A stretch of DNA of 64,000 bases, taken from NCBI GenBank assembly GCA_050182275.1, contig JBFXCK010000002.1:154202-218201 (forward strand). Reading direction: 5' to 3'. This document shows positions 8,464 to 55,692 of this stretch, piece after piece. The position numbers were made by a program, and so were the translations under genes. Source of the DNA: Dongiaceae bacterium. GTDB lineage: Bacteria; Pseudomonadota; Alphaproteobacteria; SHNJ01. The notes below the pieces were generated by a model. It had not been told where the DNA came from. It ran no database searches and worked only from the letters and a program-made list of their open reading frames with translations. How positions within the stretch are numbered: the stretch's first letter is position 1; each line of letters starts with the position of its first letter.

Positions 8464-9171
8464 ATGGAGAATTTTATGGAGTGGTGTAGTTTAGTAATAA
8501 AATCAGTCTTTAATACCATTTGGAGGAATATAGAAGGCATATTTCAGAGTTGGTCAGTTTTTTCTGATGTTCTTACAGCTTTTGGTACTCTGGTATTAGT
8601 TATATTGGCATTGATAGGGTTTAATGCCTGGAAACAGCAAATTTCCATGCAAAGAAAGGCAACTTTTATTGATGAATTACTTCACACGATATATGAATAT
8701 ATAGATGCTATGGGGGGGCCAGTCCAATCTGTTAGATTTATTAAATATGGTTTTGAGGCATACTCCGACACAGAAAAACTAAGGCAAAATAATAATAAAC
8801 ATGCGGGCATAATTACTTATATTAAAAAAAATGGAGAAAATGATTCTAAGCGTTTATTTGAACGTCTTAGAAATGTTCGCCCTTTTAAATCTAGGCTGCA
8901 TTTTTTGATAATTAAAGGCGGATTATTTAAATTTGAAGATTATTCAACATGTGCTACTGCTTGTAGGTCATTAACAAGTTCTTATGATCAAATAGAAGCA
9001 TTAGCAGCTATGATAAGTAGTCCTCTTATGAATTGGGAAAATCCGAAAGTTAAGGAGATGTTAGATAAGTTAGCTCTGCTGGATGCCTTAAATATAGAAA
9101 ATAATTTATCCACTAACCTCGAAATACTTATTAAGTTTATAGAATCTATTTATGGTAAGTTATTTAAATAG
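8464..9171 (+). CDS. hypothetical single-pass membrane protein (235 aa), strongly AT-rich
   Basis: True start taken at MENFMEW (8464), since the upstream part of the 295-aa ORF overlaps the DUF192 gene in another frame. One TM helix (VLTAFGTLVLVILALIGFNAW). GC is roughly one third by eye versus >50% in neighbours. Confidence 0.55.
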   Translation: MENFMEWCSLVIKSVFNTIWRNIEGIFQSWSVFSDVLTAFGTLVLVILALIGFNAWKQQISMQRKATFIDELLHTIYEYIDAMGGPVQSVRFIKYGFEAYSDTEKLRQNNNKHAGIITYIKKNGENDSKRLFERLRNVRPFKSRLHFLIIKGGLFKFEDYSTCATACRSLTSSYDQIEALAAMISSPLMNWENPKVKEMLDKLALLDALNIENNLSTNLEILIKFIESIYGKLFK

Positions 9172-9961
9172 AATCACCAAGCTCTCGTTTAATGGTCGCT
9201 AATACATCACCATATGTCTCTCTTATATTTCCTTTGGAAAATCTAATTTGTTGAATGCCCTCTAAATTGGAGAATTTTTCAACGTCTGCTTCTAATAGTA
9301 CAATGGCGCGGCTAAAACCCAGCTTTCCTTGAAATAATCCGATTTCATGAATAACATTTTGTCGAGCGCGAGATTTACCATTTGGTTGCTCGTCTTCTGC
9401 AGTTAAGACAAGAAATGCTATTGAAGATTTTGAGGCCATTTCATCAAGGATATCTCTAATAGTGTGTCCAGCTCTTGTGCCAGTTTCGTATGCCTCGATA
9501 CAATAATGATGTTGCTCTTGCAGATGATCTTTCAAGTCTCGCCACTGTTTATCATGTCCATGGCCAATAAAAACAATAGGCGGTTTTTTAGGAGTGGGCG
9601 GCGGCTGAACTATAGAGTTGTTATGATGAGACTCAAAAATAGAAAAAATTCTTTGAATATCTTGCGTTTTTGTTCCTTTGACTAATACACGAGTAGTAAA
9701 AAACGCGTCACCTGTTATGCGAAATCTAGCATCATTAAAAATGATGTCGATTGTGAACCAACTCTTACTTTTTCTATAATCTTCAAAAAATTCGTCTTCA
9801 TTATCATGTTCCCAGGTTGAATCATCTATGTGAACACTAAGTTGAGCATAAGTTTTTTGAGAGCTATTAGGTTTTGGATAAAGACTTAAGAATAAATTAA
9901 TAGCTTCCTTTAGAACTTCTACTGAAAATCTAGTATTGTTGTAATCTTTAGATCTTTGCAT
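9164..9961 (-). CDS. two-domain protein: N-terminal unknown domain (~130 aa) plus C-terminal TIR-like nucleotide-binding domain (Pfam PF10137, CAP12/PycTIR-type)
   Basis: C-terminal block PIVFIGHGHD...IAFLVLTAEDE...SRARQNVIHEIGLFQGKLGFSRAIVLLE...NLEGIQQIRF. This matches the FIGxxxE...AIxLxTxDD...RARxNVxFELGxFxGxLGxxRVxxL...PSDLxG signature of the TIR-like family. AT-rich. 3' end overlaps the convergent membrane-protein gene by 8 bp. Confidence 0.6.
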   Translation of the reverse strand: MQRSKDYNNTRFSVEVLKEAINLFLSLYPKPNSSQKTYAQLSVHIDDSTWEHDNEDEFFEDYRKSKSWFTIDIIFNDARFRITGDAFFTTRVLVKGTKTQDIQRIFSIFESHHNNSIVQPPPTPKKPPIVFIGHGHDKQWRDLKDHLQEQHHYCIEAYETGTRAGHTIRDILDEMASKSSIAFLVLTAEDEQPNGKSRARQNVIHEIGLFQGKLGFSRAIVLLEADVEKFSNLEGIQQIRFSKGNIRETYGDVLATIKRELGDSI

Positions 9962-10008: not shown

Positions 10009-10085
<77 letters not shown>

Positions 10086-10486: not shown

Positions 10487-10563
10487 TGGCGTCCCCGATA
10501 CGATTCGAACGTACGACCTACTGCTTAGAAGGCAGTTGCTCTATCCAGCTGAGCTACGGGGAC
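10487..10563 (-). tRNA. tRNA-Arg (anticodon TCT)
   Basis: Reverse complement GTCCCCGTAGCTCAGCTGGATAGAGC..anticodon loop CTTCTAA..GGTTCGAATC..GGGGACGCCA. 77 nt. Confidence 0.85.
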
Positions 10564-29204: not shown

Positions 29205-29978
29205 ATGGGCCCGATTGACCCCAGCCAAAATTCCGCCATGCCTTTGCTCGACCATTTACGGGAATTGCGCAACCGCTTGATGTGGGTGGCGGCGTTTTTC
29301 ATTGCGGTATTTTTCGCTGCTTTTAATTTTGCGCCGCATATTTATGCGTTTTTGGTCGAGCCTTTAGCGCATGCGCTGGAAGGCGAAAACCGCCGCCTTA
29401 TTTATACCGGCCTGACCGAGGCGTTTTTCACTTATGTAAAATTGGCGGGCTGGACCGCGTTCATTTTCACCCTGCCTTTGGCGATGATTCAATTATGGGG
29501 CTTTATCGCGCCTGGCCTTTATAATCATGAGCGCCGCGCCTTCTTGCCATTCTTAATCGCCACGCCGGTTTTATTCCTGCTGGGTGCGGCGATGGCTTAT
29601 TATTTCGTGTTTCCCATCGCCTGGAAGTTTTTTCTAAGCTATGAAATGCCGCTTCAATCCGGCGGCCTGCCGATCGAGGCGGAGCCGCGGGTCGCCGAAT
29701 ATTTATCGCTGGTGATGGGTTTGATTTTCGCCTTTGGTTTATGTTTTGAACTGCCGGTCTTGCTGACTTTGCTGGCCAAAATCGGTTTGGTGACGCCACA
29801 GCAATTGGCCAAGGGAAGGCGCTATGCGGTTGTGGTCATTTTAATTATCGCCGCAATTTTGACCCCGCCCGATGTGATCAGCCAAGTTTTATTAGCGACC
29901 CCGATGTATATATTGTACGAAATTTCCATTTTTATGGCGCGGATGGTGGCGCCGAAAGAAAATGAACAAGACAGTTAA
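29205..29978 (+). CDS. tatC: twin-arginine translocase subunit TatC
   Basis: LLDHLRELRNRL start motif, six TM helices. Start placed at 29205 just after the tatB stop. Confidence 0.9.
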   Translation: MGPIDPSQNSAMPLLDHLRELRNRLMWVAAFFIAVFFAAFNFAPHIYAFLVEPLAHALEGENRRLIYTGLTEAFFTYVKLAGWTAFIFTLPLAMIQLWGFIAPGLYNHERRAFLPFLIATPVLFLLGAAMAYYFVFPIAWKFFLSYEMPLQSGGLPIEAEPRVAEYLSLVMGLIFAFGLCFELPVLLTLLAKIGLVTPQQLAKGRRYAVVVILIIAAILTPPDVISQVLLATPMYILYEISIFMARMVAPKENEQDS

Positions 29979-30711
29979 AATATTTTTGATCATTTTACTA
30001 ATCCTGCTGCCTGTTTTTGCTCAGGCGGCGGTGGTGCGGCAAGTGATTCCTCCGGAATTAAGCTTCCGCGGCGTCAATGTGTTTTGCGCCAACGATTTAT
30101 CGCGCGCCGAATTTTCCTTCAAAAAGGCGGCCGATTTGATCATTATTCCCAAAGGCGGCGCGGTATTTTTCACCCGCGAGGAAATTATGGAAACCGCACG
30201 GCTGTTGCCGCGTTTGCCGCTTTATAGTTTGGATATTTCCGGTTTAACCATTGTTGAACCGCAAGCGCCCTATACCATGATCCGCCGCAATAAAAATTCA
30301 TATGAAGCCGAAGTGCCGGCGCGGGTCATTAAAATCGCCGCCGATGATGCGGCGGGCTTAAGCCAGGCGCTGAATAATATGGTGATTCAGCAAAACCGGC
30401 TTGACCAGTTTGCCGATTTTCTTTTTTTATTGCAGCGTCCGGGCCTAAGCAAGAATCAGCAGCGGGCAGGAGCCGAAGTTTTGCGGCAATTGGAGCAAAG
30501 CCGGTGTTATAAAACCGTATCCGACACAATGCCTTCTTCCGGCCTGCCTTTAGTGCAGCGTAAAGGGAAGGATAATTTTCAAATTCCCCGCGTAACGCCT
30601 CTTGCAGCTGTCGAAATGCCTGGCGCTTTCAAAGCAGCGGCAGACAGGCTAAAATCCCAGGCAACTTATATCGGGCGGCAAATACGCGCTTTAGAAGCCG
30701 TTAAAAGCTAA
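29962..30711 (+). CDS. exported hypothetical protein (Sec signal peptide)
   Basis: MNKTVKIFLIILLILLPVFAQA signal peptide. Shares an SFKxKKAADLI block with the next gene. Confidence 0.6.
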   Translation: MNKTVKIFLIILLILLPVFAQAAVVRQVIPPELSFRGVNVFCANDLSRAEFSFKKAADLIIIPKGGAVFFTREEIMETARLLPRLPLYSLDISGLTIVEPQAPYTMIRRNKNSYEAEVPARVIKIAADDAAGLSQALNNMVIQQNRLDQFADFLFLLQRPGLSKNQQRAGAEVLRQLEQSRCYKTVSDTMPSSGLPLVQRKGKDNFQIPRVTPLAAVEMPGAFKAAADRLKSQATYIGRQIRALEAVKS

Positions 30712-30790
30712 GATAGCCCCTAGTATTTTACCCTTGTGAGGCTTTAGCCTTTTAGGATATACTATTACAACATTCAAAGGGGATAGGGCC

Positions 30791-32113
30791 ATGGCCGAAC
30801 CACGTTTTAGAAATACCGCCGCCGCTTTTTTGGGGGCTTTAGTAGGGGTTAACAGCACCTTGGCGCAAAGCTCGGCGCCTGGCATGGAACGCCCTATCCG
30901 CCCTGGTAATACCCCCGTTACTCCACAAGCGCCCGCGCTTGGCGATCCCGGCCTTGCGCCGCCGGCCTATAACCGCTTTATCCGCCAGGAAGCGACGCTG
31001 GAGGGCGGGCCGTTTTTTCTGGGCAAAAATGATTACAGCCAGCTCAGTTTTAAAGTTAAAAAAGCCGCCGATTTAATTCGGGTGACGCTTTTAGACGCAA
31101 CGCCGTTCGATGCCAATCTGCTGCAGCAAGCGGTGCTGGGTTTAAAAAATCTTCCCCTGGTTGGTTTGCGCCAGGATGGCATCGAGATCATCCGTCCCGG
31201 CCAGGGCGGCCCAACCGTGAACGGCTTGCGCGGCGTTTATACGGTTCGGCAAACCGGCAGCTATGAATATATTCCCTATAGCGACGCCAACCGCATCCAG
31301 GGTGTTTTGAATGAATTAATCGGGAAACAAGAGCAATATGAACAACTGCTTCGTTTATTCAGTGTGCGCGCCAATCCCCGCTCCGATAATAAATTGGCCC
31401 AGCAGGCGGTCGAGGCGGTACAGGATTTAAAAGAAGAATTAGCGCGTACCGGAATTTACCGTGTGCCGGTAGGCGGGCTGGTCAGCTTGCCGAACAGCGC
31501 CGATCCCAACCCCAATTTCCCGATCGAGGCAAGAAACACCGAAGAAGTGCGGGTAAGCGAACGTGTGTTACAGGAAATTTTTGGCCGCTATGGCGCGATT
31601 GTGCGTACCGCCAACGAATATATGCGTAATAACGATATCCGCGATAATGCGCAGCCCCTGCCGGCCGAGCCGCAACCGCAGCAGCCCGCGCCGCAACTCG
31701 ATCCGTTGGCCAAGGAACGCTATCAAAACGCCTATACCGAATATAAAGAAAGATATAAAAACTTAACGCTGGCGCAATTAACATCCGAAATGGCCGAGGC
31801 GCAAAGGGAAGTTTTAAAGCGCATTGAAGTATTGATTCACAATGATTCGGTGCCGGTTTTGCGCCGGGAATTGGGCGATAATAATCTTGATCCGCTTTAT
31901 GCGCTGGTTGATTTCAGAAACGGCAAGGATTTAACCCCGGCGCAAATGAACGCGGCTTACAGCTTGTTGAAAAATTCCAGATCCACCAGCTTGGATTTGG
32001 TGCGCGCTTTCAAGGGGGCTAATAACGAGCCCACCACCGTAGCGCGGATGGATGTGATTAATTTAAATATTGCGGCGATGCGAACCAAGGAAAGACAAAA
32101 TGAAGGCAAATAA
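30791..32113 (+). CDS. exported hypothetical protein, paralogous N-terminal region to the previous gene, Q/P-rich segment
   Basis: Signal-like N-terminus. LSFKVKKAADLIRVTL vs FSFKKAADLIIIP in the upstream protein. Confidence 0.6.
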   Translation: MAEPRFRNTAAAFLGALVGVNSTLAQSSAPGMERPIRPGNTPVTPQAPALGDPGLAPPAYNRFIRQEATLEGGPFFLGKNDYSQLSFKVKKAADLIRVTLLDATPFDANLLQQAVLGLKNLPLVGLRQDGIEIIRPGQGGPTVNGLRGVYTVRQTGSYEYIPYSDANRIQGVLNELIGKQEQYEQLLRLFSVRANPRSDNKLAQQAVEAVQDLKEELARTGIYRVPVGGLVSLPNSADPNPNFPIEARNTEEVRVSERVLQEIFGRYGAIVRTANEYMRNNDIRDNAQPLPAEPQPQQPAPQLDPLAKERYQNAYTEYKERYKNLTLAQLTSEMAEAQREVLKRIEVLIHNDSVPVLRRELGDNNLDPLYALVDFRNGKDLTPAQMNAAYSLLKNSRSTSLDLVRAFKGANNEPTTVARMDVINLNIAAMRTKERQNEGK

Positions 32114-32927
32114 TTTAAAGGCGATTGCAGCGGGTGTTGGAACTTTATCGGCGGCTACCCTTACCGGCTGCCATTTAACCTCGGAAAAAACCTATACCGC
32201 CGGCAATCTGGCGGTGGAATCCACCGGCACCACTCAAACCACTATGTTCGCCAGCGTGCCGCAGGCTTTAGATCAAATCGGCCCTATCGATATCGCGGTG
32301 CGCGATTTGGACGGCAATGTGCGCACTGGCGTCATGACCTTTATTATCGATCAGCAAAAATTTCAAAGCGCTGAAAATCTGCGCAATATTTTTGGCGCAA
32401 GCGGCCGTCATCCCATCGGGCAGGGAACTTTGCCGGGCTTGGCCAGCCAGTTTGTGGCGATTCAGCAATTCGATCAACAACCTTCCGAGACGCGCCTGGC
32501 CAATTTATGGCGCTTTTGGGACGGGATGGAGCAATCGGTCAAAACTTACGGCCCCGACCGTGATTTCCGCAATGTAATCGCCTATAAAATTTATGCGGTT
32601 GAGATTGTGCAAAATTTCGGCAATTACGGTTATGGCGGCACTATCACCAGCAATTATGTCGATCAGCGGATTCACGCCAATATCACCAGCCATGATTTGC
32701 GCCATATTGCCCTGGACGTTTGCCGGCATCAAAAGAATTTATTTTCACAAATGTTTATACAAGTGGCCGATCAAAATGTGCAGGATTACCTGCAGCAGAC
32801 AGAAGTCGCGCCGCCTGCCGTTCAGCCAGAGCAACCAGCGCCCGTTATTGAGCCGCCGCAGCCTGAAGAAAATGGCATCCCTTCGGTGAATGCCAGGGGT
32901 ATCGCGTTTAAAGTCCGCCACCGCTAA
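32100..32927 (+). CDS. hypothetical lipoprotein with Pro-rich C-terminus
   Basis: Lipobox LTGC after MKANNLKAIAAGVGTLSAAT. Start overlaps the upstream stop by 14 nt. Confidence 0.6.
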   Translation: MKANNLKAIAAGVGTLSAATLTGCHLTSEKTYTAGNLAVESTGTTQTTMFASVPQALDQIGPIDIAVRDLDGNVRTGVMTFIIDQQKFQSAENLRNIFGASGRHPIGQGTLPGLASQFVAIQQFDQQPSETRLANLWRFWDGMEQSVKTYGPDRDFRNVIAYKIYAVEIVQNFGNYGYGGTITSNYVDQRIHANITSHDLRHIALDVCRHQKNLFSQMFIQVADQNVQDYLQQTEVAPPAVQPEQPAPVIEPPQPEENGIPSVNARGIAFKVRHR

Positions 32928-41602: not shown

Positions 41603-41829
41603 TAACCCAATATAGGGGGAGGGTGCTTTAATGCCTAGAGTTAGTTAACGATTTAGATGGGGAAAAGCCTTATTTCTCTATAAGAACATTTAGCTAACAT
41701 TGTTACCAGGCAAAGCGGGGGATAAGCCCTAAAAAGCTTGAAAAATAGGCGTTTTTTGCTAGTATGAGGCCTCTAAAATGGCTAGAAATAACTCGGCTAT
41801 TTTATCGGCTACACAAAGGAGCATTTCGC

Positions 41830-48680: not shown

Positions 48681-49400
48681 ATGGTAGTGCGCGCAGTGCC
48701 TCTAGGGGGGCTTAAGCGGGTTTTTTCTACTCTATTTTTGGCGATTTTAACGGCTTTTCTCTTGGGCGTAATGAATGCCCGGGCCGAAGAAAACCTGACC
48801 AGCACTTATTCACAACTTTTTAACACGCTTGAAATTCGTGTGGGCAAGCCGGTACAGCACGTGCCGCGCGCCGCTATTTTATCGGTGGCTTTGCGTCAAT
48901 TAAATGATCAAAGCCTGCAATCTTCCGGCATGCAGGAATGGCGCGCCTTGGTGGCGGCTTTGCAGGGAAAACCCGCTTATGAGCAAGTGAATAAGGTTAA
49001 TGCTTTTTTCAACCGCATCCGCTATGTGGCGGACGGCGCTAATGGCGGGCCCAGCGATGATTGGGCGCCGCCTTCGCAATTCCTGGCAAAAGGCGGGGAT
49101 TGTGAGGATTATGCGATTGCCAAATTCGCCACTTTGCGGGCGCTTGGCTTTACCGCCGATCAAGTGCGTTTGGTGCTGGTTGAAAATACCATCACCAATA
49201 AAAAACACGCTATCGGCGCGATTTATTTAAATGGCCAAACGCTGCTCATGGATAATATGAGCCAGTCTTTGCGCACCCCTGAGCAGGTGGATTATTACCG
49301 TCCGATCGCTTCCTTAGATGAAAACCGTCTATGGGTTCACATCCGTCCCCAATCGCCGCGGAACGTTGCTGCCCTGCAGCGGACAGATAAACAGGGATAA
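48681..49400 (+). CDS. periplasmic transglutaminase-like cysteine protease (BTLCP / LapG-like)
   Basis: Signal peptide plus GGDCEDYAIAKFATLRALG Cys-His-Asp core typical of BTLCP. Confidence 0.7.
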   Translation: MVVRAVPLGGLKRVFSTLFLAILTAFLLGVMNARAEENLTSTYSQLFNTLEIRVGKPVQHVPRAAILSVALRQLNDQSLQSSGMQEWRALVAALQGKPAYEQVNKVNAFFNRIRYVADGANGGPSDDWAPPSQFLAKGGDCEDYAIAKFATLRALGFTADQVRLVLVENTITNKKHAIGAIYLNGQTLLMDNMSQSLRTPEQVDYYRPIASLDENRLWVHIRPQSPRNVAALQRTDKQG

Positions 49401-49564
49401 CTAAAAGACCTCTAGCCAAATCCTCCATCTTTTGCTAAAAAAGCTATACGTCCAGAAAGCTTTGTAGCCTCTATAGATAAGGGGTTGACCTTCCTGGCCG
49501 TTAAGGGTTTATTTTCATTTGTTCCCCTATCTTATTCATTTCAAGCGATGAACGGGCTTTTATT

Positions 49565-50887
49565 ATGAAAAAATTATACGTCGCGATTTTTAGCATTCTC
49601 TTTATCGGCCTGACCCCTGGCGCCATGGCCGCCTCGCTCGGCAGCGCGGTACAGCAAGCCATCAGCACTAACCCCGATATCGGGGTGGTGTTAAGCGATA
49701 AAGATGTCGCTGAAGGCGATTTAAGCGAGGCGCGCGCCGGTTTCTATCCTTCTGTCGATTTACAGGCCAATGCCGGCCGTGAACATACCGATTCGCCCAG
49801 CACGCGCTCTAACGCCAGTGATCCTGATCCCAGCTTGAACCGCAAAGAAGCTTCGCTGACTTTGCGTCAATTATTATTCGATGGTTTTGGGGTGTGGAAC
49901 GAAGTCAAGCGCCGTAAAGCCTTGCTCGCATCTTCCGAAAACCGCGTGAAAGAACGTTCGGAACAAATCGCTTTGGATGCGATCGAAGCCTATCTCGAAG
50001 TTTTGCGCCGTAACCGCTTGGTGCAATTGGCCGAAGAAAATCTTGCCCGCCATGAATCGACTTTGGATATGGTGCAACGCCGCGCTGAAGGCGGCGGCGG
50101 CAGTGTGGCCGATGTGCGTCAAGCCGAGGCGCGGCTTGGAAATGCCCAAACCATTCTAACCCAGGTCGAACAAAATTTAAGCGATGCCGAAGCTACTTAT
50201 CAACGCGTGGTTGGCGTCAGGCCCGACGAATTAACGCGCCCCAATTTGGAAGGGGGGGCATTGCCATCTTCCCTGGATGCCGCCATCGCCCGGGCGATTG
50301 ATAATAATCCCAGCGTTTTAAGCGCTAAAACCGATTTAGACGCAGCCGATGCAGCGGTATCCGCTTCCAATGCGCCTTTCTCGCCGCGTTTTGATTTGGA
50401 ATTGCGCGGCCGCACCGGCAGCGATCTTGACGGATTACGCGGCGATAATGACCAAACCGCTGCCTTAGTGGTGGCGCGGTGGAATCTTTTCCGCGGCGGC
50501 GCCGATGCGGCGCGCAAGCGTTCAAACATCGCCCGTCAAATGCGGGCCAAAGACGTCATTGCCCGCACCCAGCGTGTAGCGGCCGAGCAAAGCCGCTTGG
50601 CTTGGAATGCTTTGACTTCGGCCCGCGGCCGGGTCGCCAGCTTGCGCAACGTGGTCGAGGCCAATGAGCGGGTGCGTGAAGCCTATGGCCAACAATTTGA
50701 ATTGAGTCAGCGCAGCCTGCTTGATTTGCTGGATTCGGAAAACGAGCTTTTCTTATCGCGCAGCGATTTGGTGACCGCGGAATATACCGCTTTATTCGGC
50801 GGCTACCGTTTGCTGGGGGCGATGGGGGCGTTATTGAACCATTTGAATATCCCCGTGCCGGCGGACAAACAAGTGGCGGCGCGGTAA
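49565..50887 (+). CDS. TolC-family outer-membrane efflux/type I secretion protein
   Basis: Signal peptide, two internal TolC repeats, 440 aa. Confidence 0.85.
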   Translation: MKKLYVAIFSILFIGLTPGAMAASLGSAVQQAISTNPDIGVVLSDKDVAEGDLSEARAGFYPSVDLQANAGREHTDSPSTRSNASDPDPSLNRKEASLTLRQLLFDGFGVWNEVKRRKALLASSENRVKERSEQIALDAIEAYLEVLRRNRLVQLAEENLARHESTLDMVQRRAEGGGGSVADVRQAEARLGNAQTILTQVEQNLSDAEATYQRVVGVRPDELTRPNLEGGALPSSLDAAIARAIDNNPSVLSAKTDLDAADAAVSASNAPFSPRFDLELRGRTGSDLDGLRGDNDQTAALVVARWNLFRGGADAARKRSNIARQMRAKDVIARTQRVAAEQSRLAWNALTSARGRVASLRNVVEANERVREAYGQQFELSQRSLLDLLDSENELFLSRSDLVTAEYTALFGGYRLLGAMGALLNHLNIPVPADKQVAAR

Positions 50888-50899
50888 GGCCGATCTTAT

Positions 50900-51889
50900 T
50901 TATTTAACCAGGCCTCTTTCCATTAATTTTTTGGCGATCATCTCTATCACCGATTTATTTTCGGGGGGCGGCGCTTTATCCAGGGCCATCAGCGCGCCTA
51001 GATGCCAAAAGGAATGGTTAATTACTTGGGCTAATTGCATCATCCAAAGTGCAGCGCCAAAGCGGGCGTCGTTTTCAATAGGGTTGTGAAAATAAGCGGC
51101 TGGATAGTGGCGCGCGTTAAAATAAAGGCGGTAATTGCCCAATAAAATGGCCCTTGTTTCTACATCAATCGCTGTCCCTTCTTTTGCAGCCGGCGGATTT
51201 TTGCCCCAGCAATATTGCAAATGGTGGCAATTTTCATGAAGCAAAATGACGATGTCGTTGAGCAGTAAATCGGGATCGTTATAGCCGCCCCTTTTTTTAT
51301 TGACGGTTATTTCGGTTTTTCCGCACTTATAATGGCCGCCTACGGAACCCGCCGAAGTTTTTTTGCGGATTCTTCTTACCTGCAGGCCGGGCAGGGAAAC
51401 TCCGCAAGCCTCGGCCAGCAAGCGGTTCATTTTTTGTAAGACTTTGAGCCTAAGTTCGCCGGTATAAGGAATTTCCCGGTCGGTGATTTTTCTTAAACAA
51501 TCCAGGAATTCGGGCTGTTGCCGCAGCAAATCCGCCAGCCGGAGCGCTTTTTGGCGGTATAATTTTAGCAGCGCCGATAAAAAATTTTGCCGTGAACGGT
51601 GCAGCCTTTGCAGGGCGGCGGTTTCCTCCGGGTATTTTTTCTCGATGCTTTTAAATGAAATACTGCTGTCGTAGGAATGAAGGGGCAAATTATAAAGCCG
51701 CGCCACCAGCCGCCGCGCTTGCTCGACGGGCATAGCTGATAAATCCTCATCCGATATTTTTTTCAATTGTTCGATCACCAGGCGCCTATCGGCGGCGGCT
51801 GCCTCTTCAGCGCGGCTAACGCGCCGTTTTTGCGGCGGTAAAACCGCCAAAGCTGCCTCGGCGATGATGGGATAGGTTTGCAGAACCAT
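50900..51889 (-). CDS. hypothetical protein with HExxH motif (putative Zn-metallopeptidase), co-directional and downstream of the cI-like repressor
   Basis: ILLHENCHHLQY is the only recognisable motif. 329 aa. Confidence 0.5.
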   Translation of the reverse strand: MVLQTYPIIAEAALAVLPPQKRRVSRAEEAAAADRRLVIEQLKKISDEDLSAMPVEQARRLVARLYNLPLHSYDSSISFKSIEKKYPEETAALQRLHRSRQNFLSALLKLYRQKALRLADLLRQQPEFLDCLRKITDREIPYTGELRLKVLQKMNRLLAEACGVSLPGLQVRRIRKKTSAGSVGGHYKCGKTEITVNKKRGGYNDPDLLLNDIVILLHENCHHLQYCWGKNPPAAKEGTAIDVETRAILLGNYRLYFNARHYPAAYFHNPIENDARFGAALWMMQLAQVINHSFWHLGALMALDKAPPPENKSVIEMIAKKLMERGLVK

Positions 51890-51953
51890 TTTTTATTGCA
51901 CCCTCTGGCCGGCACATTATTATTTTGTATCCCTAAAGTCAACGAGTTTGGGG

Positions 51954-52676
51954 CTAAAAATATTCTTGCACCCCGATCACCCGGTAAATGCTTTTAACTC
52001 TATTCCGGGGAATAGTGATTTCCTGGGCGGGGTTGAATTGTTTTAAAATAAGGGCGGCGCCTTCTTCCTTTAGATATTGCTTGACCAGGCCCTGACCGTC
52101 TTTCAGCTCGACTACCACAAAGCAGTTTTTGGACAGGGGGCGGTTAGGGTTGATGTAGAGCACTTCGCCGGGAAAGAAGCGCGGTTCCATGCTTTCGCCA
52201 TTCACATAGACCGCAAAGGCGTTTTTGACCCCATTGAGAGAGGAAGGCCGTTCAATCATTTCATGAATATCGCCATTTGATAAGAAAAACCCTTCTTTGC
52301 CGCCCTTGGCTGCGCCTAAAACCGGCAAATCACGCGAAAACTGCTTGGAAAGCGGTGAAAAATCGGTTTTTTCCGCTAAAAGATGCGGCGGGATGGAAAT
52401 GGATTTTTCCGGTAGCGCGGTAGTATTTTGGGCGGTTTCAGGAAGTAGTTCGCTAATATCGCAACCCAAACCGGCAGCGATTCTGCGCATCCAATCAACC
52501 GTTAGACGCCGTTCGCCTTTTTCGAGTTTATCAATTTGCGCCTTGCTGGTGCCGATACGGTCGGCCAGCTCTTGCATCGTGAGATCAAGACCGAGGCGGA
52601 TGTCGCGAATGCGGTTGATGGAGGGCTCCATAATCAAGGCAGCATAGACCGGCTGTTTAGTGGCGTAAATATACAA
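51954..52676 (-). CDS. phage cI/LexA-like repressor: XRE-family HTH plus S24 self-cleaving peptidase domain
   Basis: HTH LTMQELADRIGTSKAQIDKLEKGER. C-terminal FAVYVNGESMEPRFFPGEVLYINP...GLVKQY (S24 Ser/Lys dyad context). Alternative start MEPSIN at 52631. Confidence 0.8.
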   Translation of the reverse strand: MYIYATKQPVYAALIMEPSINRIRDIRLGLDLTMQELADRIGTSKAQIDKLEKGERRLTVDWMRRIAAGLGCDISELLPETAQNTTALPEKSISIPPHLLAEKTDFSPLSKQFSRDLPVLGAAKGGKEGFFLSNGDIHEMIERPSSLNGVKNAFAVYVNGESMEPRFFPGEVLYINPNRPLSKNCFVVVELKDGQGLVKQYLKEEGAALILKQFNPAQEITIPRNRVKSIYRVIGVQEYF

Positions 52677-52678
52677 AA

Positions 52679-52693
52679 GTATACAAATTGTAT
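52679..52693. promoter_or_regulatory. perfect palindrome TATACAAATTGTATA in the divergent promoter region (candidate operator)
   Basis: Lies between the divergently transcribed repressor and HTH genes. AT-rich context carries TATA-like hexamers. Confidence 0.5.
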
Positions 52694-52729
52694 ATTTTGT
52701 GGATAATTGGATACCAAATCTTGTTAAAA

Positions 52730-52746
52730 GTAACCAGAATGGTTAC
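52730..52746. promoter_or_regulatory. perfect palindrome GTAACCAGAATGGTTAC (candidate operator) just upstream of the Cro-like gene
   Basis: 6-5-6 inverted repeat located 10 bp upstream of the ATG at 52757. Confidence 0.5.
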
Positions 52747-52756
52747 TACACTAACT

Positions 52757-53182
52757 ATGGACAACTTACGCGAGTATCTAGAATTCCATGGATTAAGCGC
52801 AGCCGAATTCGCACGGCGTATCGGGATTAAAAGCCGCAGCACCATTTTCCGTTATTTGCGGGGCCGCCGCCCAAGGGCCGATTATAAATCAAAAATATCT
52901 ATTTATATAAATGGTTTAAGTAATAATATTCATATTCAAGATAAATATAATCGCCAACAGGATGCCTCCCTTCATTGGCAAATAGCTTTGATGATCTTAG
53001 GCGCGCGCGTTAAAAAGGGGGGCAAATCCGGCCTTTATACGCTGGATGGGCGCCCTTGCGGAGGAAAAGGCCTCATTCAAGCGGCAAACGCCGAATTGCG
53101 TTGTAAGGGCTTCCCTTTGCTGTTCTATCCAGGTTTAAGGCCTTTACCGGAAAAATCGCCGCCGCGCTGGCGGCCTTATTAG
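52757..53182 (+). CDS. Cro/XRE-like small HTH protein (HTH within the first ~45 aa; remainder low-confidence)
   Basis: LSAAEFARRIGIKSRSTIFRYLRG HTH. Transcribed divergently from the cI-like repressor. Confidence 0.45.
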   Translation: MDNLREYLEFHGLSAAEFARRIGIKSRSTIFRYLRGRRPRADYKSKISIYINGLSNNIHIQDKYNRQQDASLHWQIALMILGARVKKGGKSGLYTLDGRPCGGKGLIQAANAELRCKGFPLLFYPGLRPLPEKSPPRWRPY

Positions 53183-53277
53183 CCCGTAAAGTCTTAATTT
53201 TGTTCAAGCTACGTAAAATTAGGATAAAATGGGGTATACTAAGACTAAGGAAACCATCTTGTAAAACAGGAAAAATA

Positions 53278-53925
53278 GTGAATAAACCTTCATCTTCCGG
53301 CTTTGCTTTAGGCACGATTATTTTGGTGATCGCGCTTTTGGCTGCTGTTACCACGGCCTTTTCGCTGGCCAGCCGCAGCAACCTTTTTACCAATACCGAT
53401 CCTTTGCAGCGCAATGAACTTATACCGGTGCGTGATGGCATGCTGCAAATCGCCGCCGCCACGCGGCGTATTATTAACAGCTGTCCGGCCGATCCTGTCG
53501 AATATAGCGCATGTTTGGACCGGATTAATGTCAATCCAGAATGCCCGGAATGCGCGAATGATGAAACCGCGGCGCGGCATTGGGTGTATCAACCAATTTA
53601 TGGGGGCGCTTCGCTTTTTCACATCCGCCCGCGCTATTTGGCCGATATACAAGTTCCGGTCAGCTGGGTTCTCGCGCGCAATGTCCGCCCGGCGCGCGGC
53701 GGGGCTTTAATCCCGGTGGTGATATATGCCGAAGGTTTTTCCAGCCATGCCTGCCGCTTGCTTAACGAGATTATCAGTCTGCGCCCGCTTGCTGCAACCT
53801 TTACCGCTCCGGCTTTACAATCTTTTGGCACTTTGCCATACGATGCGGTAGAAGGATGCTTCGTGGTATCGGGAACAAATGGAATGCGCACTCAATATTT
53901 TTATGTCGTCGGAGGGCGTCAATGA
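53278..53925 (+). CDS. pilin/pseudopilin-like protein A: short basic leader, N-terminal hydrophobic helix, Cys-rich periplasmic domain
   Basis: GTG start preceded by AGGA. MNKPSSSG|FALGTIILVIALLAAVTTAF resembles a prepilin leader but lacks Glu5. Cys cluster CPADPVEYSAC...CPECAND. Confidence 0.5.
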   Translation: MNKPSSSGFALGTIILVIALLAAVTTAFSLASRSNLFTNTDPLQRNELIPVRDGMLQIAAATRRIINSCPADPVEYSACLDRINVNPECPECANDETAARHWVYQPIYGGASLFHIRPRYLADIQVPVSWVLARNVRPARGGALIPVVIYAEGFSSHACRLLNEIISLRPLAATFTAPALQSFGTLPYDAVEGCFVVSGTNGMRTQYFYVVGGRQ

Positions 53926-54614
53926 GTCATCATAAGTTTTTCAGCCGGGGTTTCGCCATCGGCACTGTATTGCTGGTCATTGTCTTGATGGCCTCCACCA
54001 TGATGGCGTTTTCCGCCCTTCGCGGCGATCAAACCAGTATGGTGATGGATGATAAATACCGCAGCCTGGCTGGCGTTGTGCGCGCCCAAGCCAGCGATAT
54101 TCAGCGCATTTACCTGCGTGTTCATGATGGAATGCCGGAACCAGAAAAATCTGATCCGACCGCCAATATCCGCGTTTGCATTCCCAATGCGGGCTGCACT
54201 TGTTCGCCGCCGGCTCAGCCTTGCGTCTTTGGATCAACCGGCGGCGCCTTAATTCAGCCAACCTTGCGCCGCGATATTTTCGCCGATAGCGTCAGCGACA
54301 CCAGTTATTTCACTGACCCTTGGCGCGTGGCCAAAATCCAAGTTCCCATCGGGCGCCATACCGCGGAAGGCGAAACAACCGACTGGGCTATCATGCTTTA
54401 TTTGCGCGCGCCGGTGCGCCAGGAAGTATGTGAAAAAATCAATTTTTATGCCGCGCGGGGGCGCACCTATCCAACGGTAGCGCCGCAATATTTCACCGAT
54501 CTTATCGCCGGAAGCCAGGTTTTGGACATGGCGCAAAGCGCCGATTTTTGCATTCCGGTTAATACTTCGCCACCGGCCGGGCGTTATGTTTTGATCATCG
54601 GCTCTCATCCTTAA
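53922..54614 (+). CDS. pilin/pseudopilin-like protein B, paralogue of A
   Basis: MSHHKFFSRG|FAIGTVLLVIVLMASTMMAF. Cys cluster CIPNAGCTCSPPAQPC. Shared IQVP block. ATGA overlap with gene A. Confidence 0.5.
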   Translation: MSHHKFFSRGFAIGTVLLVIVLMASTMMAFSALRGDQTSMVMDDKYRSLAGVVRAQASDIQRIYLRVHDGMPEPEKSDPTANIRVCIPNAGCTCSPPAQPCVFGSTGGALIQPTLRRDIFADSVSDTSYFTDPWRVAKIQVPIGRHTAEGETTDWAIMLYLRAPVRQEVCEKINFYAARGRTYPTVAPQYFTDLIAGSQVLDMAQSADFCIPVNTSPPAGRYVLIIGSHP

Positions 54615-54624
54615 AAATTTTGTT

Positions 54625-55137
54625 ATGCGTTTTTGGTTTTTCCTTTTTCTTCTTGGTTCGGTGCTGGCGGCTTGCAACCGCGGCAACCATTCGCCCGAAG
54701 CCGGCTTTTGCCGCGCCGTGGTGGAAGATGTGTTTGTAAGCAATCAGGACCTTGATATTCAAGAAGTGGCCGTTAACGCGAAAAATCCCAAAGGCCAAGT
54801 GACGGTGATTTACAGCGTGCTGGATACCACCGGACGGCGGGTAAATGATAAAGCTGTTTGTTCCTTCAATCCCGATCTGGGAGCGAAGGGCGGTTTACTG
54901 TCGCTTCACCAGCTAGGCGCCGATATTCCCGCGATTCATGTGGCGTTTTTAAATCAGCGCTTGGGCGGAAAATTCGGCTACCGGGCCCCGCCGCTGGTTT
55001 CCCGTAAAGCGGCGGCTCCGCCTGCCGAAGCGCCTAAGATAAATCCGCCGCCTGCGCCCGCGCCCGAGGCGGAGACGCCCAAGCCTAAAGACAGCTCGGT
55101 GCCCGACGATACGCCGGCGCCCGATATGGGCGACTAG
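54625..55137 (+). CDS. hypothetical lipoprotein with Pro-rich C-terminal tail
   Basis: Lipobox LAAC after MRFWFFLFLLGSV. Confidence 0.55.
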   Translation: MRFWFFLFLLGSVLAACNRGNHSPEAGFCRAVVEDVFVSNQDLDIQEVAVNAKNPKGQVTVIYSVLDTTGRRVNDKAVCSFNPDLGAKGGLLSLHQLGADIPAIHVAFLNQRLGGKFGYRAPPLVSRKAAAPPAEAPKINPPPAPAPEAETPKPKDSSVPDDTPAPDMGD

Positions 55138-55146
55138 GCTTTAAGC

Positions 55147-55692
55147 TTAAGCCGCTTTTTTACCGGGCATTACTTTCGGGAAATCAACATCGGTTTGCGC
55201 GACGTGATTAAAGAAATTGGTATAAAAATTAATCGCAATGCAAGCGACTACCTCGGCGATTTCGCCTTCGCTTAATTGCTGTTTGGCCGATTGCAAATCG
55301 GTGTCGCTGATATTGCCCTTGGTCTGAATAATAGTTTTAGTCAGTTTCAGCGCCGCCGCGGTTTTAGCATCGGTTGATTGATAATTGCGCGCCGATAGGG
55401 CGGCTTCATCGGTTAGCCCCGCTTTCTTGCCGATAGCGGTATGTGCCGATAAACAATATTGGCAGGAATTTTCTTCGGCAACCGCCAAGGCAATGGCTTC
55501 ACGCGCCGCGGGAGTTAAGCTGGCTTCGCTTAGAGCCGCGCTCATCCCTTGATATGCGCCAAGAGCGGCTGGCGAATTGGCGAGCGCTTTAAAAATATTC
55601 GGAATGGTTCCAAGCTTCGCTTGAACGGCGTTCAGCATGTCTTTGCTTTTGCCGGGAGCAGTGGCGGGTTCGAGATAGGAAAGACGGGCCAT
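55147..55692 (-). CDS. AhpD-like carboxymuconolactone decarboxylase family protein
   Basis: CQYCLSAH (CxxCxxxH) AhpD core motif. Confidence 0.75.
   Translation of the reverse strand: MARLSYLEPATAPGKSKDMLNAVQAKLGTIPNIFKALANSPAALGAYQGMSAALSEASLTPAAREAIALAVAEENSCQYCLSAHTAIGKKAGLTDEAALSARNYQSTDAKTAAALKLTKTIIQTKGNISDTDLQSAKQQLSEGEIAEVVACIAINFYTNFFNHVAQTDVDFPKVMPGKKAA

What the first reader, a model, noticed from the sequence alone, without database searches (positions are those of the whole stretch)
50900..55137. cI/Cro-type switch controlling an operon of two paralogous pilin-like Cys-rich proteins and a lipoprotein, with an HExxH protein behind the repressor
Between tolC and an AhpD-like gene lies a self-contained module. 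A LexA/cI-like repressor (XRE HTH plus S24 autoprotease) is transcribed leftward together with a 329-aa HExxH protein, reminiscent of ImmR/ImmA-type repressor-metalloprotease pairs. A small Cro-like HTH gene is transcribed rightward, followed by two translationally coupled paralogues and a lipoprotein. The paralogues have short basic leaders ending in Gly followed by a 20-residue hydrophobic helix (SSG|FALGTIILVIALLAAV; SRG|FAIGTVLLVIVLMAST), which is prepilin-like but lacks Glu5. Each has a downstream cysteine cluster typical of a pilin disulfide region. No phage structural, integrase or pilus-assembly genes are present. A damage-inducible switch driving pseudopilin-like proteins is not an arrangement I recognise. 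It may be a prophage remnant (superinfection-exclusion or receptor-masking genes) or a novel inducible envelope system.
Basis: partly seen in the sequence, partly recalled or inferred. Interest (0 to 1): 0.65.

Follow-up and report, generated by a model that had tools for sequence, protein, structure and literature searches.

The report
Conserved repressor switch driving unknown envelope proteins
This is a real five-gene cassette, fixed at one chromosomal site in a group of uncultured alphaproteobacteria, in which a phage-type repressor switch sits in front of three exported proteins of unknown family; they are not demonstrable pilins, and the cassette is not a recent prophage.

Summary
All six genes are there as described. 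The repressor B has an XRE helix-turn-helix, an S24 domain and the Ser/Lys catalytic pair, but Gly-Gly where LexA and cI have the Ala-Gly cleavage site.

Related metagenome loci change the reading. B, C, D, E and usually F occur in the same order in at least five other lineages. They always lie beside the same housekeeping block (PAS kinase, hydrolase, DEAD helicase, UDG, rpoZ, relA). In a close pair of loci dN/dS is 0.06-0.25. Every B-C intergenic region carries two or three 17-bp palindromes (GTAWMCA-N3-TGKWTAC). The switch is therefore real and the cassette is vertically inherited.

D and E are true paralogues (profile comparison E 9e-18). Each is a single-pass membrane protein with an invariant G-F-A-x-G start to its membrane helix and an even number of cysteines. 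Pilin membership fails: no Glu5, no significant pilin profile, no fold match and no pilus genes nearby.

The HExxH protein is an orphan absent from every relative, so an ImmR/ImmA-type pairing is not supported. D, E and F have no relatives in phage, plasmid, PDB or family libraries.

Best reading: a domesticated cI/Cro-type inducible switch controlling a lineage-specific envelope complex whose function is unknown.

The parts
51954..52631 (-). B: cI/LexA-type repressor, XRE HTH plus Peptidase_S24, 225 aa
   Evidence: Pfam HTH_3 1e-11 and Peptidase_S24 1e-12; phrog_4 3e-36. The N-terminal domain is closest to the phage 434 repressor in the PDB. Ser147 and Lys184 align with the catalytic pair, but the scissile position reads K-G|G rather than A|G. 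It is 45-57% identical to orthologues in L006, L009-L014; dN/dS 0.06.
52632..52756 (.). Divergent control region between B and C
   Evidence: GC falls to 0.43 here. A sigma-70-like hexamer pair for rightward transcription, TATACA-16-GATAAT at 52680-52707, overlaps O1. There is no alphaproteobacterial LexA box (GTTC-N7-GTTC) in this region.
52679..52695 (.). Operator-like palindrome O1, GTATACAAATTGTATAT, with an extra direct half-site at 52669-52676
   Evidence: Perfect 7-1-7 palindrome. Matches GTAWMCA-N3-TGKWTAC with 1 mismatch. An equivalent site is present in the B-C spacer of all related loci.
52730..52746 (.). Operator-like palindrome O2, GTAACCAGAATGGTTAC, 51 bp from O1 and just upstream of the likely C start
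   Evidence: Zero mismatches to the consensus; O1 and O2 are the only good matches in 64 kb. The site is conserved in position in L006, L009-L014. Sites of this kind occur at 0.12 per shuffled region against 2-3 observed.
52757..53182 (+). C: second HTH regulator in the Cro position, two domains, ~141 aa (annotated start 52739)
   Evidence: HTH_3 1.5e-6. Orthologues lie in the same position in 7 loci. They share a C-terminal domain (WQA...LDG...AAN..L...G..LI.YPG) with no known family. dN/dS 0.25.
53278..53925 (+). D: single-pass membrane protein, 215 aa, GTG start, basic leader, G-F-A-L-G membrane helix, periplasmic domain with 6 Cys
   Evidence: Finds only itself in the 5.8e9-protein search. 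Orthologues were recovered through synteny. AF2 with 12 sequences gives pLDDT 69 and pTM 0.64: membrane helix 9-31, then helices and a 4-stranded sheet. No PDB or viral fold match. dN/dS 0.09.
53922..54614 (+). E: paralogue of D, 230 aa, start overlaps the D stop codon (ATGA)
   Evidence: The exhaustive HMMER search found a single remote homologue, P0004 (E 6.8e-4). The E-family alignment is. hhalign of the D family against the E family gives E 8.6e-18. dN/dS 0.16.
54625..55137 (+). F: lipoprotein, 170 aa (lipobox VLAA|C), ~95-aa domain with 2 conserved Cys and a Pro-rich tail
   Evidence: The lipobox and FCR..EDVF / C.F / FLN.R motifs are conserved in 5 lineages. F is absent in the L014/L089 lineage. 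No family or PDB match. dN/dS 0.12.
55137..55163 (+). Terminator-like hairpin plus T-run between the convergent ends of F and the CMD/AhpD-like gene
   Evidence: GGCTTTAAGCTTAAGCC GCTTTTTTAC
50900..51889 (-). A: 329-aa orphan protein with HENCH, downstream of B; not part of the conserved cassette
   Evidence: No Pfam, PHROG, NCBIfam, PADLOC or PDB match. Finds only itself among 5.8e9 proteins. No phage match. Absent from every related locus. Codon score is positive in frame.

Best explanation
The core of the finding is a five-gene chromosomal cassette, B | C-D-E-F. It is inherited vertically in a clade of uncultured alphaproteobacteria. The window comes from a MAG labelled Dongiaceae.

How it most likely works:
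1. B is a phage-type XRE/S24 repressor. It binds as a dimer to the two or three 17-bp palindromes (GTAWMCA-N3-TGKWTAC) between the divergent genes. This shuts off rightward transcription and probably regulates B's own gene.
2. When B is inactivated, C is made. Inactivation is most likely by S24 self-cleavage triggered by RecA* or another stress. C is a two-domain HTH protein in the Cro position, and it either locks the switch or activates the D-E-F promoter.
3. The translationally coupled D, E and F are then exported. D and E are paralogous N-in/C-out single-pass membrane proteins. Their invariant GxxxG-type membrane helix (G-F-A-x-G) probably pairs them as a heterodimer, and their periplasmic alpha/beta domains are disulfide-bonded.
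4. F is a lipoprotein with a Pro-rich tail that probably joins D and E in an envelope complex.

By analogy with lexA-yneA and lexA-sosA, the complex may modify or check the envelope or cell division under stress.

Shown here by computation: gene reality and constraint, synteny, the domain content of B, operator conservation, D/E paralogy, the lipobox, and the absence of any known family for D, E and F. Inferred: DNA binding by B, the inducing signal, the role of C, membrane topology, disulfides, complex formation and physiological function.

The regulatory pair probably derives from an ancient prophage immunity region, as proposed for IrvR/IrvA and for the non-canonical LexA of Bacteroidetes. 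The HExxH gene A is a lineage-specific addition with no demonstrated link to the cassette.
For: - Synteny. The same gene order lies beside [CMD]-PAS kinase-hydrolase-DEAD-UDG-rpoZ-relA in L006, L010/L011, L012, L014/L089/L090 and, partially, L009. Window against L006: RelA is 80% and UDG 67% identical, B 53%, F 34%, D 31%, C 29%.
- Constraint. dN/dS between L010 and L011 is 0.06-0.25 for all five genes, similar to the neighbouring kinase (0.06) and hydrolase (0.12).
- Repressor. B has HTH_3, S24 and the Ser/Lys pair.
- Operators. There are two or more palindromes per B-C spacer in 8 loci against 0.12 expected. They are confined to that spacer, and the window has only these two good sites.
- Cargo. 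D and E are paralogues. G-F-A-x-G is invariant in all 13 family members and found nowhere else in the window. Leaders are basic, cysteine counts are even, and D and E overlap. The F lipobox is conserved.
- Precedents for domesticated cI/Cro-type pairs that control host surface functions: PMC7101444 (IrvR/IrvA) and PMC8565304 (non-canonical LexA).
Against: - The scissile site is Gly-Gly, not Ala-Gly or Cys-Gly, throughout this repressor subfamily, so RecA-stimulated cleavage is unproven.
- One lineage (L014/L089) has Thr/Arg in place of the catalytic Ser/Lys yet keeps C, D and E. Self-cleavage therefore cannot be essential everywhere.
- A 95-117-bp gap lies between C and D, with TATAAT-like boxes in L006 and L014. 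D-E-F may therefore be a separate transcription unit that is not directly under B.
- There are no expression data.
- The function of D, E and F rests on analogy alone.
Confidence: 0.55

Rival explanations
1. D and E are Glu5-less minor pseudopilins of the GspK/PilX kind. A prepilin peptidase cuts them at G|F, and they are incorporated into, or cap, a pilus or pseudopilus whose machinery is encoded elsewhere. The switch makes this inducible.
For: - The leader ends in Gly, followed by Phe and ~20 hydrophobic residues. This segment is invariant across both paralogues and six lineages while the rest has drifted.
- Sub-threshold, in-register hits to the first 40 positions of the NCBIfam GspK, GspH and prepilin N-terminal models occur in 3 of 12 family members (E 0.06-0.17).
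- The D model has a long helix plus a 4-stranded sheet.
- From established knowledge: prepilin peptidases need mainly Gly at position -1.
Against: - No Glu5, and Ala2 and Gly4 depart from the PS00409 pattern.
- No significant Pfam or NCBIfam pilin hit for any of 12 members. Equally weak hits go to unrelated membrane-anchored families.
- Foldseek returns no pilin or pseudopilin among the top PDB matches.
- A Ser/Thr/Gly/Pro linker of low model confidence separates the membrane helix from the next helix, so there is no continuous alpha-1.
- There are no secretin, ATPase, platform or peptidase genes in the 64 kb or in the flanks of relatives, and no canonical prepilin motif anywhere in the window.
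Confidence: 0.1
2. The region is a decayed prophage or mobile element. D, E and F are superinfection-exclusion or receptor-masking genes.
For: - B matches the phage repressor family phrog_4 and the 434 repressor.
- A B homologue lies in one IMG/VR contig.
- In L013 the B-C pair is followed by a DUF6362 protein instead of D-E-F, which suggests a modular regulatory pair.
- Module genes have lower codon-usage scores than housekeeping genes.
Against: - No integrase, att repeats, adjacent tRNA, or replication or structural genes.
- No tblastn match of A, D or E to 50,697 phage records, and no D, E or F relatives in 2.9 million viral contigs.
- The cassette occupies the same chromosomal site in lineages as divergent as 80% RelA identity and is under purifying selection.
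- Exclusion genes are normally expressed together with the repressor, not on the repressed side (established knowledge of lambda rex and P22 sie).
Confidence: 0.12
3. A and B form an ImmR/ImmA-type or DdrO/IrrE-type pair, in which the HExxH protein A cleaves the repressor to induce the operon.
For: A lies 64 bp downstream of B on the same strand and contains HENCH. B's HTH weakly matches CapH-type regulators in PADLOC.
Against: - A matches no Peptidase_M78/COG2856 or any other model.
- A finds only itself in the 5.8e9-protein search.
- A is missing from all related cassettes, where a DnaJ-like gene or an M17 peptidase gene follows B.
- B carries its own S24 domain.
- By my own rough estimate, a bare HExxH motif arises by chance in about 1% of proteins of this length.
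Confidence: 0.03
4. B is a plain autoregulated, non-cleaving repressor. The cassette is expressed constitutively or in response to an unrelated signal, perhaps through C or the neighbouring PAS kinase, so there is no damage-inducible switch.
For: - Gly-Gly replaces Ala-Gly at the scissile position in the whole subfamily, and several members have lost Ser or Lys.
- There are possible separate -10 boxes in front of D.
- IrvR shows that LexA-like proteins can work independently of RecA (PMC7101444).
Against: Ser147 and Lys184, together with the GxSMxP and VK motifs, are retained in the window and in most orthologues under strong constraint. Gly at P1' is invariant.
Confidence: 0.2

Closest known systems
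Lambda/434-type cI-Cro immunity switch
   Same: An XRE-HTH plus S24 repressor is transcribed divergently from a second HTH gene. Several palindromic operators lie in a ~105-bp spacer and overlap promoter-like hexamers.
   Different: It is not in a prophage. The Cro-position protein has two domains and 141-200 aa. The scissile site is Gly-Gly. The genes on the 'lytic' side encode exported envelope proteins rather than replication or lysis functions.
IrvR/IrvA of Streptococcus mutans (PMC7101444) and the non-canonical LexA of Bacteroidetes (PMC8565304): domesticated cI-type S24 repressors in core genomes
   Same: A phage-derived cI-like (and Cro-like) regulator is fixed in the core chromosome and controls host functions. 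For IrvR the end target is a surface protein.
   Different: There is no sequence relationship beyond the shared domains. Here the cargo is adjacent and co-oriented with the Cro-like gene. The inducing signal and cleavage have not been tested.
lexA-yneA (Bacillus), lexA-sosA (Staphylococcus) and lexA-chiZ (Mycobacterium): damage-induced division inhibitors (recalled from established knowledge, not tested here)
   Same: An S24 repressor is transcribed divergently from genes for N-in/C-out single-pass membrane proteins.
   Different: B is not LexA, and its operators are not SOS boxes. D and E are three times larger, rich in cysteine, lack LysM, and come with a lipoprotein.
T2SS/T4P minor pseudopilins without Glu5 (GspK, PilX)
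   Same: A basic leader ends in Gly, followed by a hydrophobic residue, Ala-Leu and a hydrophobic helix. There are faint in-register HMM hits.
   Different: No significant profile match, no GspK or pilin fold, no machinery nearby, and a flexible linker after the helix.
Phage spanins Rz/Rz1 (analogy only)
   Same: A single-pass inner-membrane protein with periplasmic cysteines is paired with a Pro-rich lipoprotein, and both are expressed from the derepressed side of a cI switch.
   Different: There is no holin or endolysin. There are two paralogous membrane proteins with a globular alpha/beta domain rather than a coiled coil. F has a ~95-aa folded domain. There are no PHROG hits.

Membership tests
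LexA/cI-type self-cleaving repressors (HTH + Peptidase_S24) | N-terminal DNA-binding HTH domain | tested here: met
   HTH_3 1.2e-11; 434 repressor 2e-4
LexA/cI-type self-cleaving repressors (HTH + Peptidase_S24) | C-terminal S24 domain with the Ser/Lys catalytic pair | tested here: met
   Peptidase_S24 1e-12. Ser147 (GESM) and Lys184 (VKQ) align with LexA S119/K156, cI S149/K192 and UmuD S60/K97.
LexA/cI-type self-cleaving repressors (HTH + Peptidase_S24) | Ala-Gly (or Cys-Gly) scissile bond about 35 residues before the Ser | tested here: not met
   The aligned position reads K-G|G. The P1' Gly is conserved but P1 is Gly, and 40+ subfamily members show [KR]-G-G.
LexA/cI-type self-cleaving repressors (HTH + Peptidase_S24) | RecA*-stimulated or alkaline autocleavage | not testable with these tools
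   Needs biochemistry.
Lambda-type cI/Cro switch | Divergent repressor and second HTH gene with multiple shared operators | tested here: met
   O1 at 52679-52695 and O2 at 52730-52746. The motif is conserved in 8 loci, with 2-3 sites per spacer against 0.12 expected.
Lambda-type cI/Cro switch | Embedded in a prophage (integrase, replication, lysis and structural genes) | tested here: not met
   Flanks are housekeeping genes in the window and in relatives. No att or tRNA. No phage DNA or protein matches.
Type IV pilin / T2SS pseudopilin (class III signal) | Gly at -1 followed by a hydrophobic +1 residue and a ~20-residue hydrophobic helix | tested here: met
   SSG|FALGTIILVIALLAAV and SRG|FAIGTVLLVIVLMAST, invariant in 13 family members
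Type IV pilin / T2SS pseudopilin (class III signal) | Glu at +5 and the PS00409 / N_methyl / TIGR02532 signature | tested here: not met
   +5 is Thr, Leu or Met. No N_methyl or TIGR02532 hit even at E<=10. The pattern scan of the window is empty.
Type IV pilin / T2SS pseudopilin (class III signal) | Significant match to any (pseudo)pilin profile | tested here: not met
   The best hit is GspK N-terminal positions 2-40, E 0.06-0.17 and 11-13 bits against a cut-off of 130, in 3 of 12 members.
Type IV pilin / T2SS pseudopilin (class III signal) | Pilin fold (continuous alpha-1 packed on an antiparallel sheet) | tested here: inconclusive
Type IV pilin / T2SS pseudopilin (class III signal) | Genomic association with assembly ATPase, platform, secretin or prepilin peptidase | tested here: not met
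   None in the 64-kb window or in the +/-10 kb flanks of relatives. The rest of the genome was not examined.
ImmR/ImmA, DdrO/IrrE, CapH/CapP repressor-metalloprotease pairs | COG2856 / Peptidase_M78 zincin domain in the partner protein | tested here: not met
   A matches no Pfam, NCBIfam, PADLOC or PDB entry. Only the bare HENCH motif is present.
ImmR/ImmA, DdrO/IrrE, CapH/CapP repressor-metalloprotease pairs | Protease gene conserved together with the repressor | tested here: not met
   A is absent from all 6 related cassettes.
Bacterial lipoproteins (F) | Signal peptide ending in the lipobox [LVI][ASTVI][GAS]C | tested here: met
   VLAA|C in the window; LSAC, LVGC and LAAC in orthologues
Known anti-phage defence systems (PADLOC) | Match of cargo proteins to a defence-system model | tested here: not met
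   No hit for A, D, E or F at E<=0.1

The most novel reading that the evidence does not exclude
D, E and F form a previously unknown envelope apparatus that is switched on by stress. Two paralogous membrane-anchored proteins have an invariant, pseudopilin-like (GspK-type, Glu5-less) N-terminus and are joined by a Pro-rich lipoprotein. A domesticated phage immunity switch drives them. The apparatus could be a damage-induced checkpoint on the envelope or on cell division, or a minimal periplasmic pseudopilus-like structure that borrows a prepilin peptidase encoded elsewhere. It would be specific to an uncultured alphaproteobacterial clade.
Probability: 0.15. Interest if true: 0.7.

Novelty: new variant of a known kind. 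Interest (0 to 1): 0.45.

Why it matters
This is a clean example of a phage cI/Cro-type immunity switch that has been captured by the host. It has been kept at one chromosomal site across a clade, operators intact, and wired to three constrained exported proteins that belong to no described family.

If the cargo turns out to be a stress-induced envelope or division module, two things would follow. It would extend the recurring arrangement of an S24 repressor next to a single-pass membrane effector (lexA-yneA, lexA-sosA, lexA-chiZ) to alphaproteobacteria with quite different proteins. It would also define new protein families: D/E, F, and the C-terminal domain of C.

There is a methodological point too. 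Three 'orphan' genes in a search of 5.8 billion proteins became a 13-member family only after an exhaustive HMM search and a synteny-guided search anchored on the repressor.

Tried and rejected
- Pfam, PHROGs, NCBIfam and PADLOC scans of A, D, E and F, also at relaxed E-values and on N-terminal fragments: nothing significant.
- Word-indexed homologue searches for A, D and E: each found only itself.
- tblastn of A, D and E against phages, and blastn of the module against plasmids: nothing.
- PDB sequence and profile searches for A and for the D, E, F and C families: only the HTH of C matched.
- Single-sequence AF2 of E: unusable, pLDDT 42.
It worked after the family members were registered through the listing of cluster members.
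- Synteny search via TolC in genome contigs: only distant TolC proteins in Marinobacter and Syntrophorhabdus, so uninformative.
- att repeats, tRNA and Rfam searches around the module: nothing.
- Viral-contig scans with the D, E and F alignments: nothing. The C alignment was too variable to scan.
- LexA-box scan: matches at chance level and none in the control region.
- Spurious ORFs: rejected because of conservation and dN/dS.
- My by-eye impression that the periplasmic domains of D and E align within the window alone: rejected by the shuffle test, then recovered only at family-profile level.

Full report
**Observation.** They coincide with the public gene calls for this contig, a MAG labelled 'Dongiaceae bacterium' (GCA_050247815.1).
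- B (51954-52631, minus strand) matches HTH_3 and Peptidase_S24, the PHROG repressor family phrog_4 at 3e-36 and the phage 434 repressor in the PDB.
- Aligned with LexA, lambda cI and UmuD, B keeps the catalytic Ser (GES147M) and Lys (VK184Q). At the scissile position it reads K-G|G instead of A|G or C|G.
- C is an HTH_3 protein. D and E overlap in ATGA. F has a lipobox. A contains HENCH.
- All six genes score best in their annotated frame with a codon model trained on housekeeping genes of the window, but lower (0.13-0.34 against 0.38-0.60).
- There is no tRNA, integrase, flanking repeat or Rfam element at the borders. The module ends 12 bp and 9 bp from the convergent tolC and CMD genes.

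**First-pass identity of A, D, E and F.** None matches Pfam, PHROGs, NCBIfam or PADLOC, even at relaxed thresholds. Word-indexed searches of 5.8 billion proteins returned only the query itself for A, D and E. tblastn against 50,697 phage records and blastn against plasmids found nothing. Within the window, D and E are significantly similar only over the leader and membrane helix. In a shuffle test, z is 9 for the full length and -0.3 for the part after the helix.

**The turning point.** An exhaustive HMMER search with E against 1.84 billion representatives found one remote relative, P0004 (E 6.8e-4, residues 1-65). Its contig (L006, GCA_964458615.1) carries an S24/HTH repressor, a divergent HTH gene, a 267-aa protein, P0004 and a 164-aa protein. 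These are followed by PAS kinase, hydrolase, DEAD helicase, UDG, rpoZ and relA, the same right-hand neighbours as in the window. Each of the five proteins is the orthologue of B, C, D, E or F.

A metagenome scan anchored on the B alignment gave 79 loci. phmmer and jackhmmer over their ORFs recovered the full cassette in L010, L011 and L012, in L014 without F, and partially in L009. Wherever the flank is present on the contig, the cassette lies next to the same [CMD]-kinase-hydrolase-DEAD block. L089 and L090 confirm this for the L014 lineage out to relA.

Identity between the window and L006 is 80% for RelA, 67% for UDG, 62% for the DEAD helicase, 53% for B, 47% for the kinase, 34% for F, 31% for D and 29% for C. 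E aligns only near its N-terminus. Between the close pair L010 and L011, dN/dS is 0.06 (B), 0.25 (C), 0.09 (D), 0.16 (E) and 0.12 (F), comparable with the neighbouring kinase and hydrolase. The cassette is therefore real, constrained and vertically inherited, and it is not a recent insertion. A, TolC and the BTLCP peptidase are not found in any relative. There a DnaJ-like gene or an M17 peptidase gene lies beyond B.

**The switch.** The B-C spacer of the window contains a perfect palindrome, TATACAAaTTGTATA, and a second one, GTAACCAgaaTGGTTAC. Aligning the spacers of eight loci shows a shared 17-bp motif, GTAWMCA-N3-TGKWTAC. Each spacer has two or three sites scoring at least 11-12 of 14, against 0.12 per shuffled spacer. 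In whole-locus scans, sites scoring 12 or more fall almost exclusively in the B-C spacer. In the 64-kb window only O1 (52679-52695) and O2 (52730-52746) match with one mismatch or fewer.

O1 overlaps a sigma-70-like hexamer pair for rightward transcription. O2 sits just upstream of the start codon that is conserved among C orthologues, which moves the likely start of C to 52757. There is no alphaproteobacterial LexA box in the spacer. This is comparative support for a cI/Cro-type control region. Which protein binds which site remains inference.

**The repressor subfamily.** All 51 B-like proteins collected have [KR]-G-G (or a degenerate form) at the scissile position. Most keep GxSMxP and the Lys. 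Several have lost Ser or Lys, including the L014 lineage, which has Thr/Arg and still keeps C, D and E. Self-cleavage is therefore plausible for the window's B but unproven, and it cannot be universal in the clade.

**C.** All orthologues have an N-terminal HTH, a variable middle and a conserved C-terminal domain (WQA...LDG...AAN..L...G..LI.YPG). This domain has no Pfam or PDB relative. C is in the Cro position but is not a Cro-sized protein. In L013 a B-C pair is followed by a DUF6362 protein instead of D-E-F. That fits a modular, probably phage-derived regulatory pair.

**D and E.** The family alignments show a basic leader of 7-25 residues and an invariant G-F-A-x-G, followed by about 18 hydrophobic residues. 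Then come a Ser/Thr/Gly/Pro-rich linker, an amphipathic helix, a cysteine cluster, and a C-terminal strand-helix(Cys)-strand unit ending in [ED]GC...Y[FY]x[IV][IV].

Profile-profile comparison of the two families gives probability 99% and E 8.6e-18 over 190 columns. Without the leader and membrane helix it still gives E 1.3e-4 over the C-terminal 74 columns. D and E are therefore genuine paralogues. Cysteine counts are even (6 and 6 in the window). Together with the positive-inside leaders, this fits a disulfide-bonded periplasmic domain on an N-in/C-out anchor, which is inference.

G-F-A-x-G is a GxxxG motif. I read it as the helix-packing interface of a D-E heterodimer. That would explain why the helix is invariant while the rest has drifted, but it is also inference.

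**Is it a pilin?**
- *Features met:* Gly at -1, Phe at +1 and a hydrophobic helix.
- *Features not met:* there is no Glu5, and the PS00409 pattern fails at +2, +4 and +5.
- *Profiles:* no N_methyl, TIGR02532, PilX_N or Tad hit for any of 12 members. Three E-family members give faint in-register hits to positions 2-40 of the NCBIfam GspK model (E 0.06-0.17, 11-13 bits against a cut-off of 130). These sit beside equally faint hits to unrelated membrane-anchored families.
- *Context:* no pilus, T2SS or Tad genes, and no canonical prepilin motif, occur in the window or in the flanks of relatives.

Membership is not supported. A GspK-like, Glu5-less signal cut at G|F is not excluded, and I carry it as the novel case.

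**F.** The lipobox, two further cysteines, the motifs FCR..EDVF and FLN.R, and (in three lineages) a Pro-rich tail are conserved. There is no family or PDB relative. One lineage lacks F.

**A.** This HExxH protein is an orphan with no family or PDB match and no counterpart in any related cassette. The ImmR/ImmA reading therefore rests on a bare four-residue motif and on position, and I reject it.

**Origin and analogues.** No D, E or F relatives occur in 2.9 million viral contigs, and only one B homologue was found there. The regulatory pair looks like an ancient capture of a phage immunity region. The same has been argued for IrvR/IrvA of S. mutans, a cI/Cro-like pair in the core genome that controls a surface lectin independently of RecA (PMC7101444). 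It has also been argued for the cI-type 'non-canonical LexA' of Bacteroidetes (PMC8565304). The arrangement of an S24 repressor divergent from genes for single-pass membrane proteins recalls lexA-yneA, lexA-sosA and lexA-chiZ. That is established knowledge and an analogy only.

**Verdict.** It is not supported for pilins, ImmA or a recent prophage.

The most likely mechanism is a domesticated, operator-controlled cI/Cro-type switch. When its S24 repressor is inactivated, it turns on a D-E heterodimer and the F lipoprotein in the envelope. The physiological role is unknown.

I rate it a new variant of a known kind: a known type of switch driving a cargo that belongs to no described protein family. 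Interest is moderate.

Noticed in passing
window 29962-32927 (+): Three consecutive genes (249, 440 and 275 aa) directly downstream of tatA/B/C have no Pfam family on record, although their codon usage is normal.
   Followed up: no
window 9164-9961 (-): A 265-aa CAP12-PCTIR TIR-domain protein lies next to tRNA-Pro (10009-10085) and tRNA-Arg (10487-10563), amid housekeeping genes. This may be a small defence islet.
   Followed up: no
window 48681-50887 (+): A BTLCP/Peptidase_C93 (LapG-like) gene is followed by a TolC-type outer-membrane factor. Like A, this pair was not found in any related locus, so the left flank of the cassette has been remodelled in this lineage.
   Followed up: partly
window 41684-41698: GTTAGCTAAATGTTC, one mismatch from the alphaproteobacterial LexA box GTTC-N7-GTTC, lies in the uvrA-ssb intergenic region. 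This hints that the organism has a canonical LexA regulon separate from B.
   Followed up: no
L014 6989-7603; L089/L090 7956-8567: The B orthologue of this lineage has Thr and Arg in place of the catalytic Ser and Lys. The same lineage lacks the lipoprotein F but keeps C, D and E.
   Followed up: partly
L009-L056 (B homologues): A large subfamily of XRE/S24 repressors from soil, peat and freshwater metagenomes carries [KR]-G-G instead of A-G at the LexA/cI scissile position. Their cleavage chemistry and partners appear to be uncharacterised.
   Followed up: partly
L013 5684-7684: A B-C regulatory pair with the same operator-like motif is followed by a DUF6362 protein rather than D-E-F. The switch may therefore be a portable module.
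   Followed up: partly
window 53183-53277; L006 4460-4576; L014 6245-6293: The 95-117-bp gap between C and D contains -10-like boxes (TATAAT in L006 and L014, TATACT in the window). In L006 it also contains a 31-nt palindrome. D-E-F may have their own regulated promoter.
   Followed up: partly
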